Shown: positions 5,916 to 9,882 of the stretch, piece after piece
Layout: each line of letters begins with the position of its first letter
Position numbering within the stretch: the first letter of the stretch is position 1
Assembly (NCBI RefSeq): GCF_006345805.1
Contig: NW_021826724.1
Location: 1 to 12,096 of the forward strand
Direction: 5' to 3'
Length of the DNA: 12,096 nt
Source of the DNA: Octopus sinensis
Lineage: Eukaryota
The notes under the pieces: generated by a model
The model's database searches: none
Told to the model about the DNA's origin: nothing
What the model saw: the letters and a program-made list of their open reading frames with translations, nothing else
Made by a program: the position numbers and the translations under genes

Positions 5916-5955
5916 ATATTATATATAATATATATATATATATATATTATATATA
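5814..5955. repeat. (CA)n/(TA)n microsatellite
   Basis: Read directly. Confidence 0.95.
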
Positions 5956-5956
5956 A

Positions 5957-6110
5957 AATATTATTGAGACAAAACCACTATTTTGCAAAACAACAAGGAA
6001 AGACTTAATCAATACATAAAATTTAATAAATAGTCAAAAAACCGCCACTACAATCGTTTCTTGTCTTGATCGACAATCTTCAGGTGGACTTCCAATAATT
6101 CAGTTACAAA
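5957..6110 (-). mobile_element. Probable Penelope-like element terminal repeat (pLTR) fragment inserted in (TA)n
   Basis: Non-repetitive island between TA tracts carrying a minimal hammerhead fold. Minimal type I hammerheads are an established feature of Penelope-like pLTRs. No RT or GIY-YIG coding sequence is visible. Confidence 0.6.
6045..6087 (-). ncRNA. Minimal type I hammerhead ribozyme
   Basis: Minus strand reads CCAC-CUGAAGA-UUGUC-gaucaa-GACAA-GAAA-CGAUUG-UA-GUGG. Stem I CCAC/GUGG, core CUGANGA, 5-bp stem II, GAAA, 2-bp stem III with a near-palindromic loop, cleavage triplet GUA. Confidence 0.85.
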
Positions 6111-6159
6111 TTATATATATATATAATATATAATATATATATATAGATAGATAGATATA

Positions 6160-6548: not shown

Positions 6549-6966
6549 CTCTTTTACTTGTTTCAGTCATTTGACTGCGGCTATGCTGGAGCACCGCCTT
6601 TAGTCGATCAAATTGACCCCATGACTTATTCTTTGTAAGCCCATTACTTATTCTATCGGTCTCTTTTGCCGAACCGTTAGGTGACGGGGACGTAAAACAC
6701 CAGCATCGTTTGTCAAGCAATGCTAAGGGGACAAACACAGACTCACAAACACACAAACACACACACACTTCACATATATATATATATATATATAATACAT
6801 ATATATACGACAGGCTTCTTTCAGTTTCCGTCTACCAAATCCACTCACAAGGTATTGGTCGGCCGGGCTATAGCAGAAGACACTTGCCCAAGATGCCACG
6901 CAGTGGGACTAAACCCGGACCATGTGGTTGGTTAGCAAGCTACTACCACACAGCCACTCCTGCGCC
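6549..6966 (-). mobile_element. Full-length tRNA-derived SINE, family B, with internal (TA)/(TG) microsatellite
   Basis: Minus-strand head GGCGCAGGAG-TGGCTGTGTGG (A-box 6956-6946), GGTTTAGTCCC (B-box-like 6915-6905) and CORE-like cttgggcaagtgtcttct. The 3' part ends tgactgaaacaagtaaaagag and matches 7590-7735. Confidence 0.9.
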
Positions 6967-6973
6967 TATATAT

Positions 6974-7035
<62 letters not shown>

Positions 7036-7046
7036 ATTATTATATA
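6967..7046. repeat. (TA)n tract
   Basis: Read directly. Confidence 0.95.
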
Positions 7047-7250
7047 TATCTGTAAAATAATATGTGACAATTATTCGGTAGCCCAAGATAAACTGAGTTT
7101 CGGATGCCGAGGTAGAAATCCACAACACCATCTCTTCGGTTATCTGGTCAGATAACCGAAGAGATGGTGGTGTGGATTTCCACCTCGGCATCCGAAACTC
7201 AGAGTTTTATCTTGGCTATTGAATAATTGTCACGTATTATTTTACAGATA
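7047..7250. repeat. Long inverted repeat (arms 7047-7146 and 7149-7250, 2-nt spacer)
   Basis: Arms are reverse complements with about 5 substitutions and 3 small indels by manual alignment. Centre is ttcggttatctg-gt-cagataaccgaa. Confidence 0.97.
7150..7212 (+). ncRNA. Type I hammerhead ribozyme-like fold with variant core (CCGAAGA)
   Basis: Stem I AGAUAA (7150-7155)/UUAUCU (7207-7212). Core CCGAAGA 7156-7162. Stem II GAUG...CAUC(C) with inner GUGG/CCAC. GAAA 7194-7197. Stem III ACU-cag-AGU. Triplet GUU ending at 7206. Confidence 0.6.
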
Positions 7251-7314
7251 ATTTCCTCTATTTACATAATATTGTGGTCTCTTTCTTTCTTTTGTTATCT
7301 TACCGTTTTTTACC

Positions 7315-7337
7315 ATATATTATATTTATATATACCA

Positions 7338-7380
<43 letters not shown>

Positions 7381-7589: not shown

Positions 7590-7741
7590 TTACGTCCCCA
7601 TAACTTAGCGGTTCGGCTAAGAGGCCGATAGAATAAGTACTAGGCTTACAAAGAATAAGTCCTGCGGTCGATGTGTTCGACTAAAGGCGGTGCTCCAACA
7701 TGGCCGCAGTCAACATGACTGAAACAAATAAAAGAATAAAA
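7590..7741 (+). mobile_element. 5'-truncated SINE, family B (3' portion)
   Basis: Roughly 85-90% identical by eye to the reverse complement of 6549-6695. Confidence 0.9.
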
Positions 7742-9610: not shown

Positions 9611-9783
9611 CAAAGATATCGATACGCACACGGACATTATGTCGTAAAAGAATTTACATAATAAACATGCATTTAACTGCGCTTTGTAAATAGGCAACAT
9701 GGCTAAAACCATACAGTTGTATTTGCATACAAGAATGAAGAACGGGTTCGCCTGGTTTCCGCAGTTCGTATTTGGTATTTATG

Positions 9784-9882
9784 AGTGTCAAACACTTATA
9801 AGTGTCAAACATTTATAAATGTCAAACACTTAGAAGTGTCAAACACTTATAAATGTCAAACACTTATAAGTGTCAAACACTT
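9784..9882. repeat. 17-bp minisatellite, about 5.8 copies (AGTGTCAAACACTTATA)
   Basis: Units start at 9784, 9801, 9818, 9835, 9852 and 9869, each with 0-2 substitutions. Confidence 0.97.

What the first reader, a model, noticed from the sequence alone, without database searches (positions are those of the whole stretch)
7150..7212. Second hammerhead fold, unrelated in sequence, with non-canonical core CCGAAGA (U4C), bulged long stem II and GUU site
Seen: a perfect 6-bp stem I brackets CCGAAGA...GAAA...GUU in exact hammerhead register. The C at core position 4 is present in both arms of the palindrome (tcttcgg at 7133-7139), so it predates the inversion. Inference: it may be a family-wide natural core variant rather than decay. 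If so, two distinct ribozyme-bearing retroelement families lie about 1 kb apart.
Basis: partly seen in the sequence, partly recalled or inferred. Interest (0 to 1): 0.75.

Follow-up and report, generated by a model that had tools for sequence, protein, structure and literature searches.

The report
Altered hammerhead core in Penelope retrotransposon
This is the tail of a jumping gene with thousands of copies whose hammerhead-shaped RNA swapped a normally fixed core letter (U to C) partway through its history and kept multiplying, so it likely still cuts itself slowly, though cutting is untested.

Summary
The motif is real. It is the type I hammerhead in the terminal repeat of a Hydra-clade Penelope-like element, inserted here as a head-to-head pair of truncated ends between TA runs.

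The C at core position 4 is inherited, not decay of this copy. Of 2,804 arms matching the window's subfamily pattern, 242 have T and 94 of the first 100 have C; 77 of 77 scorable arms found by downstream flank alone have C. It is not family-wide: older subfamilies carry canonical CUGAAGA (96/100 and 97/100), so U4C was fixed later, and younger subfamilies with intact ORFs descend from it. All subfamilies carry one extra base before GAAA, so the register is not exact.

An unrelated Penelope-type family (8,907 arms) is also mostly C4. Constraint on the fold is clear over the whole history, but only suggestive after U4C, and the youngest copies fold worse.

U4C is known from a viroid and allowed by CYGANGA descriptors; earlier scan notes report similar variants elsewhere in this genome. 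Best reading: a slow, dimer-dependent ribozyme (about 0.5); rival: a retired ribozyme (about 0.3). Cleavage is untested.

The parts
7044..7146 (-). Inverted, truncated copy of the element's 3' end; carries a second CCGAAGA core (7139-7133) with a 3-nt deletion in stem III
7149..7315 (+). Sense, 5'-truncated 3' end (pseudo-LTR) of a Hydra-clade Penelope-like element, subfamily called M1 here; about 60 nt longer at its 3' end than the inverted arm
7150..7155 (+). Stem I, 5' strand; the longer bulged stem I of intact copies is cut off here by the inversion
7156..7162 (+). Hammerhead core C3-A9, with C in place of U at position 4 (7157); C3 and G8 can pair
7163..7192 (+). Long, interrupted stem II; the proximal 4 bp are the same in all subfamily majorities, the distal part varies
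7193..7193 (+). Extra nucleotide between stem II and GAAA; C in older subfamilies, U in younger ones
7194..7206 (+). GAAA, palindromic stem III centred on 7201 (centre base varies), U16.1 = 7205, U17 = 7206; predicted cut 3' of 7206
   Evidence: cut position inferred from hammerhead numbering
7207..7223 (+). Stem I, 3' strand (7207-7212) and its extension
6967..7049 (.). (TA)n run, left flank (preferred target)
7315..7368 (.). (TA)n run, right flank
5955..6112 (-). Unrelated neighbouring repeat end with a canonical CTGAAGA hammerhead (core starts at 6083); context, not part of the element

Best explanation
The stretch is the type I hammerhead motif in the terminal repeat of a Hydra-clade Penelope-like retrotransposon, whose younger subfamilies fixed C in place of U at core position 4 and kept multiplying; it likely remains a slow ribozyme that would cut 3' of 7206 when two tandem repeats pair through the palindromic stem III. 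Shown: parent element, subfamily counts, U4 in older-looking and C4 in younger-looking subfamilies, and conservation of the fold across subfamily majorities. Inferred: order in time (from divergence), dimer folding, residual cleavage, and its role in releasing unit-length RNA from tandem transcripts. The window copy itself is probably inert, because its two arms form a long hairpin that buries both motifs.
For: Parent: the motif lies about 200 nt after the stop of an RT plus GIY-YIG ORF. L177 has motif-ORF-motif with two CCGAAGA cores 2,578 nt apart around a 717-codon open frame. The protein shows RWK, DKT, CxCX5C, CxxC and CxH and lacks CCHH, the Hydra traits listed in PMC8557442 section 11. 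C4 fixed: 242 T of 2,804 arms, first 100 = 94 C, 4 T, 1 A, 1 G; 77 C and 0 T among 77 scorable of 100 arms picked by downstream flank only. U4 in sisters: 96 of the first 100 of 1,126 arms and 97 of the first 100 of 346. Divergence to group majority: U4 group 7.6% (49 copies), C4 groups 6.4% (15), 3.5% (18), 1.6% (33). Constraint: 1 of 35 core and proximal-stem positions differs among 8 subfamily majorities (a pair-keeping G-C to G-U) against 49 of 163 elsewhere, p=0.0002; among C4 groups 0 of 35 against 21 of 163, p=0.013. Structure: 91% of cells paired, 6 pairs with two-sided change, reached by 12 of 500 shuffles. Predicted M1 dimer has the hammerhead arrangement, -64.0 against -52.4 kcal/mol for two monomers. 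Recurrence: an unrelated family has 70 C and 30 T in the first 100 of 8,907 arms, with the 28-nt motif shared by copies whose flanks are a median 77% and as little as 53% identical; a third motif family has 16 C, 10 T, 3 A, 2 G of 31. Precedent: U4C lowers activity in vitro yet supports viroid infectivity (PMC3088659 passage).
Against: No cleavage or expression data. In a mutational scan of a type III hammerhead, CUGA-turn mutants other than the C3-G8 swap had low activity (PMC9901934 passage), and this motif carries a second defect, the extra base before GAAA. With the pattern-fixed positions removed, constraint among C4 groups is not significant (0 of 21 against 21 of 157, p=0.06), and the 3' tail is nearly as invariant as the motif. 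Younger subfamilies fold worse: probability of proximal stem I is 0.81 for an M1 copy, 0.0 for an M2 copy and 0.15 for a Y copy, and their dimer minimum is not a hammerhead (one copy each). The family-3 motif identity is partly imposed by the search pattern. 5' ends at the predicted cut are few (2 to 4 independent of 100, p 0.015 to 0.07 for 4 or 3 events, with microhomology). Unchecked scan notes report other fixed core changes in this genome, which fits relaxed constraint as well as specific tolerance of C4.
Confidence: 0.5

Rival explanations
1. Retired ribozyme: U4C (on top of the extra base) switched cleavage off, the element transposes without it, and the fold is now slowly eroding.
For: Later subfamilies add C-to-U at 7193 and weaken distal stem I; predicted hammerhead folding falls in M2 and Y; post-U4C constraint is borderline once search bias is removed (p=0.06); PMC8557442 notes that Naiads proliferate without canonical hammerheads and that hammerheads may simply parasitize these elements (passage).
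Against: No second core position changed in any of five C4 subfamily majorities; the same substitution recurs in unrelated families and matches the one tolerated in a viroid.
Confidence: 0.3
2. The fold is kept for a non-catalytic job, such as a binding or priming signal for the element's reverse transcriptase, so position 4 is free while the stems are not.
For: Proximal stems are invariant across majorities while position 4 changed; 30 of 100 5' ends fall at 7131-7156, on the 5' side of stem I.
Against: Unpaired catalytic bases (G5, A6, G8, A9, G12, A13, A14) are as invariant as the stems; the end cluster can be explained by fold-back at a short self-complementary stretch near 7146-7150 (seen junctions).
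Confidence: 0.15
3. This copy alone is mutated, or the fold is chance.
For: C4 sits in a CpG and the copy is several percent diverged; Rfam gives no hammerhead hit.
Against: C fixed in thousands of arms; canonical sisters; 1 of 300 shuffles.
Confidence: 0.01

Closest known systems
Hammerheads of Hydra-clade Penelope-like elements, e.g. Hydra-1_Obim and Hydra-2_Amil (Craig et al. 2021, PMC8557442; section 11 and File S2 table read)
   Same: Type I fold near the 3' end; palindromic stem III with a one-base centre (Hydra-2_Amil has the same arms as the older subfamilies here); (TA)n targets; Hydra protein motifs
   Different: All 26 Hydra rows of File S2 have U4 (their search required it); this family's core-plus-flank words were not found in the supplement; here C4 plus one extra base only on the 3' side of stem II; by eye a different family from Hydra-1_Obim (no alignment run)
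Minimal type I hammerheads of metazoan Penelope-like elements (Cervera and de la Pena 2014, PMC4209133; parts 1-2 of 4 and supplement part 2 of 3 read)
   Same: Location in pseudo-LTRs, long stem II, palindromic stem III, proposed dimer action, low activity in vitro
   Different: Their consensus is CUGANGA with the extra base 5' of stem II; all 44 alignment rows seen have U4; the core change they report is U3-A8
Viroid U4C hammerhead (Ambros and Flores 1998, seen only as cited in PMC3088659)
   Same: Same substitution, described as much slower in vitro but sufficient in vivo
   Different: A viroid variant, not a fixed state of a high-copy animal retroelement; original paper not held
CYGANGA search descriptors (PMC13481778 passages)
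   Same: Position 4 is already allowed to be C or U, and C/T variation is reported among deep-sea viral candidates
   Different: The passages seen give no test of a C4 representative and do not concern retroelements

Membership tests
Type I hammerhead ribozyme | Core CUGANGA with U at position 4 | tested here: not met
   C at 7157, fixed in younger subfamilies; met in older subfamilies
Type I hammerhead ribozyme | C3-G8 pair, G5, A6, A9, GAAA, A15.1-U16.1 and a non-G base 17 | tested here: met
   unchanged in all 8 subfamily majorities
Type I hammerhead ribozyme | G10.1-C11.1 pair directly flanking the core | tested here: inconclusive
   Possible only with a one-base bulge next to it; becomes G-U or an inserted U in younger subfamilies
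Type I hammerhead ribozyme | Stems I, II and III in type I order, supported by variation | tested here: met
   91% of cells paired, 6 pairs with two-sided change, 12 of 500 shuffles as high; most proximal pairs never vary and so say nothing
Type I hammerhead ribozyme | Site-specific self-cleavage | not testable with these tools
   No raw RNA reads listed; genomic end pile-up weak
Minimal PLE hammerhead (Cervera 2014) | Short palindromic stem III for dimer action | tested here: met
   Palindrome 7195-7207 with a variable centre; hammerhead-type dimer predicted for OLD and M1 copies, not for M2 or Y
Minimal PLE hammerhead (Cervera 2014) | Extra base between A9 and G10.1 | tested here: not met
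   The extra base is on the 3' side
Hydra clade of Penelope-like elements | Single ORF under 3 kb, RT with C-terminal GIY-YIG endonuclease | tested here: met
   717-codon frame, 2,578-nt unit; GIY-YIG Pfam hit only weak, E=0.004 and below cut-off; whole protein has no Pfam hit
Hydra clade of Penelope-like elements | RWK and DKT motifs, CxCX5C linker, CxxC and CxH, no CCHH | tested here: met
   Read directly in P0003 against PMC8557442 section 11
Hydra clade of Penelope-like elements | Pseudo-LTR tandems, inverted truncated copies, (TA)n targets | tested here: met
Hydra clade of Penelope-like elements | Phylogenetic placement of the RT inside the clade | not tested
   No named reference proteins were available as loci; 835 unnamed homologs found, top 120 at 42-52% identity

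The most novel reading that the evidence does not exclude
Penelope-like elements of at least two clades in this octopus-like genome independently fixed C at the 'invariant' hammerhead position 4 and kept cutting with it, perhaps through a protonated C that mimics the U-turn, making C4 a recurrent working core in animals and giving matched natural U4/C4 pairs that show how little cleavage retrotransposition needs.
Probability: 0.35. Interest if true: 0.68.

Novelty: new variant of a known kind. Interest (0 to 1): 0.5.

Why it matters
Whether the hammerheads of Penelope-like elements must cut for the element to move is described as unresolved in the papers read (PMC4209133, PMC8557442). This family holds a natural before-and-after pair in one genome: older subfamilies with the canonical core, younger ones with C4, and intact elements carrying two C4 motifs. 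Either result is informative. If C4 cuts, an 'invariant' base is dispensable in animals and CUGANGA-only searches miss thousands of motifs per genome. If it does not, an element kept spreading after its ribozyme was silenced.

Tried and rejected
Rfam scan: no hammerhead hit, only microRNA-type hairpin matches below threshold.
Sequencing runs: no RNA holder listed; all 24 runs are contigs, so no RNA ends or expression level.
One search showed no variant at 7157 but also missed the other older-subfamily markers before about 7180, so it has no power there and was set aside. One search gave U4 shares of about 4.4%, 2.2%, 1.9% and 11% in X15, X16, X17 and X8; this shows only that C4 copies occur under four organism labels (the reference favours C4 groups). 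The higher share in the guessed-RNA run is no evidence of editing.
CpG decay as the sole source of T4 copies: rejected, 242 T against 92 mirror G5-to-A; some T copies carry older-subfamily markers, others sit on C4 backgrounds.
Metagenome search for relatives: 59 pattern hits, none confirmed.
First pair count used a mis-registered structure; replaced. One search used 29 hand-picked copies; 8 of 37 picked were left out (internal deletion or insertion, truncated 5' strand, or near-duplicate).
Generic CCGA descriptor: 1,461 hits against 461 control, but 11 of the first 100 rows are a different motif read out of register, and others are mutated family-3 copies, so the excess is not a count of C4 families.
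Cut-site pile-up: 5 of 100 ends at 7206-7210, two being one duplicated event and two having microhomology; not accepted as a footprint.
My early label 'Neptune/Nematis' was dropped.
Papers not held: Lunse et al. 2017, Ambros and Flores 1998. File 1 of the PMC4209133 supplement was not searchable.

Full report
Observation. The described bases are present: a 6-bp stem I (7150-7155 with 7207-7212) around CCGAAGA (7156-7162), a long interrupted stem II (7163-7192), GAAA (7194-7197), a palindromic stem III centred on 7201 and GTT at 7204-7206. One extra C sits between stem II and GAAA, so the register is off by one. A hammerhead descriptor with a 6-bp stem I hits only this site in the window and 1 of 300 shuffles. 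The motif is the right arm of a head-to-head pair spanning about 7044-7250, between TA runs. The pair folds as one hairpin of -155 kcal/mol in which neither motif forms, so this genomic copy is probably inert.

Parent element. The own genome (2.7 Gb; octopus-like, inferred from its repeats and from likeness to a published octopus element) gave 2,215 candidates for the right arm. Longer copies continue upstream into an ORF for a reverse transcriptase with a C-terminal endonuclease. L177 is complete: motif, 717-codon open frame, motif, the two CCGAAGA cores 2,578 nt apart. The protein has RWK, DKT, a CxCX5C linker, CxxC and CxH, and no CCHH. These are the traits that define the Hydra clade in PMC8557442 (section 11). 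Pfam gives only a sub-threshold GIY-YIG hit and nothing for the whole protein. No tree was built.

Is C4 fixed? With position 4 left open, the window's subfamily pattern finds 2,804 arms; the first 100 read 94 C, 4 T, 1 A, 1 G, and 242 of the 2,804 have T. To avoid selecting on the motif, I took the first 100 of 2,310 arms matched by a downstream flank of the younger subfamilies: 77 could be scored, all C; 23 were truncated or unmatched. Two sister patterns give the opposite: 96 T of the first 100 of 1,126 arms and 97 T of the first 100 of 346. Divergence from the group majority falls from 7.6% in the U4 group to 6.4%, 3.5% and 1.6% in the C4 groups (pattern-ordered copies only; the two oldest groups are mixed, so their order rests more on shared markers than on these figures). 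U4 is therefore inferred ancestral and C4 derived, with several later waves of amplification. The window copy belongs to the earliest C4 group. The extra base before GAAA is present in every subfamily, C in older and U in younger ones. C4 copies occur in public runs under four organism labels.

Is the fold under selection? Among eight subfamily majorities built from 256 arms (8 dropped as too short or unaligned), 1 of 35 core and proximal-stem positions varies, against 49 of 163 others after collapsing indel columns (p=0.0002; 0.012 with pattern-fixed positions removed). Among the five C4 groups the figures are 0 of 35 against 21 of 163 (p=0.013), and 0 of 21 against 21 of 157 (p=0.06) without the pattern-fixed positions. 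The 3' tail is also slow-changing, which weakens the test. On 29 copies the named structure has 91% of cells paired and 6 pairs with two-sided change, reached by 12 of 500 shuffles. Folding supports a hammerhead-shaped dimer for an older U4 copy and an M1 copy but not for one M2 and one youngest copy. So selection is clear over the family's history and only suggestive after U4C.

Recurrence. An unrelated repeat end seen in flanking DNA has 8,907 arms, 70 C and 30 T in the first 100. One locus runs into a Penelope-type reading frame with a DKG motif, that is, a different clade. Its C4 copies include subfamilies whose flanks are as little as 57% identical while the 28-nt motif matches exactly (identity imposed by the pattern, so the lineages that changed it are unseen). 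A third motif family has 16 C, 10 T, 3 A and 2 G of 31. Unchecked notes of this scan describe a U4C family and other fixed core changes elsewhere in the genome.

Footprint of cutting. Five lie at 7206-7210, of which two are one duplicated event and two have microhomology; expected about 0.9, p 0.015 for four events and 0.07 for three. This is a hint at most. No RNA run with raw reads was listed.

Mechanism. From PMC4209133 (parts 1-2 of 4) and PMC6765202 (passages): these motifs are thought to act as dimers in tandem transcripts, cut weakly in vitro, and perhaps release unit RNAs for circularisation. Applied here (inference): the two repeats flanking the ORF pair through the stem III palindrome and cut after U7206-equivalent. 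U4 contacts the A6-N7 phosphate (PMC3088659 section 8). A protonated C can replace U in a riboswitch U-turn (PMC4105743 abstract listing and passages; PMC6061696 listing only), which offers a route to residual activity, untested for hammerheads in what I read. Against this, CUGA-turn mutants were weak in a type III scan (PMC9901934 passages).

Novelty. Hammerheads in Penelope-like and Hydra elements, the inverted insertion layout and U4C itself are all known: U4C from a viroid (PMC3088659) and as CYGANGA in descriptors (PMC13481778 passages). I did not find C4 reported for these retroelements: all 44 rows seen in PMC4209133's supplement and all 26 Hydra rows in PMC8557442's File S2 have U4, though both searches required it. 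Searches for 'hammerhead' with 'U4C' gave one paper; 'octopus', 'Penelope', 'hammerhead' gave nothing on this. Lunse et al. 2017, the largest survey of variants, was not held and may already list it. Also seen without bearing on the verdict: bioRxiv 10.64898/2026.07.22.740005 part 1 of 5, PMC3907566 and PMC3884650 passages.

Verdict. A real, lineage-fixed core variant in a recently active Hydra element, with its canonical ancestors in the same genome. New variant of a known kind; interest 0.5. Identity of the element is near certain; residual cleavage is about even odds.

Noticed in passing
L151-L175 (centre 1501-1528): Unrelated Penelope-type family, 8,907 arms, minimal hammerhead with 70 C and 30 T at position 4 in the first 100; 8 of 9 T copies form one long-branched group in a flank tree.
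   Followed up: partly
L272, L281-L294: Old hammerhead family with a 6-nt palindromic stem III loop; 16 C, 10 T, 3 A, 2 G at position 4 of 31 exact matches. Parent element not sought.
   Followed up: partly
L269, L275 (around 1497-1525): Motif that reads as a core with C in place of A6 (CUGCCGA); 11 of the first 100 rows look like this family.
   Followed up: no
L086, L037, L054: Hammerhead-like motifs with a U3-A8 core.
   Followed up: no
L268: Motif with a CCGAGGA core seen in about 7 of 100 rows, in a GC-rich context; not checked for stems.
   Followed up: no
window 7131-7156 equivalent, L295-L394: 30 of 100 5' ends cluster just before the core, where fold-back junctions form; the window's palindrome centre is one of these.
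   Followed up: partly
L002-L006, L008: Six loci share identical flanks around this element, so they lie in a larger multiplied segment (or assembly duplicates); their flanks do not match the window's.
   Followed up: partly
L039, L049: Endonuclease fragments of other Hydra-like families beside the element.
   Followed up: no
window 6571-6665 and 7619-7713: Inverted pair of short-repeat copies, 89% complementary, bracketing the element.
   Followed up: no
window 9779-9882: 17-bp tandem array, 6 copies.
   Followed up: no
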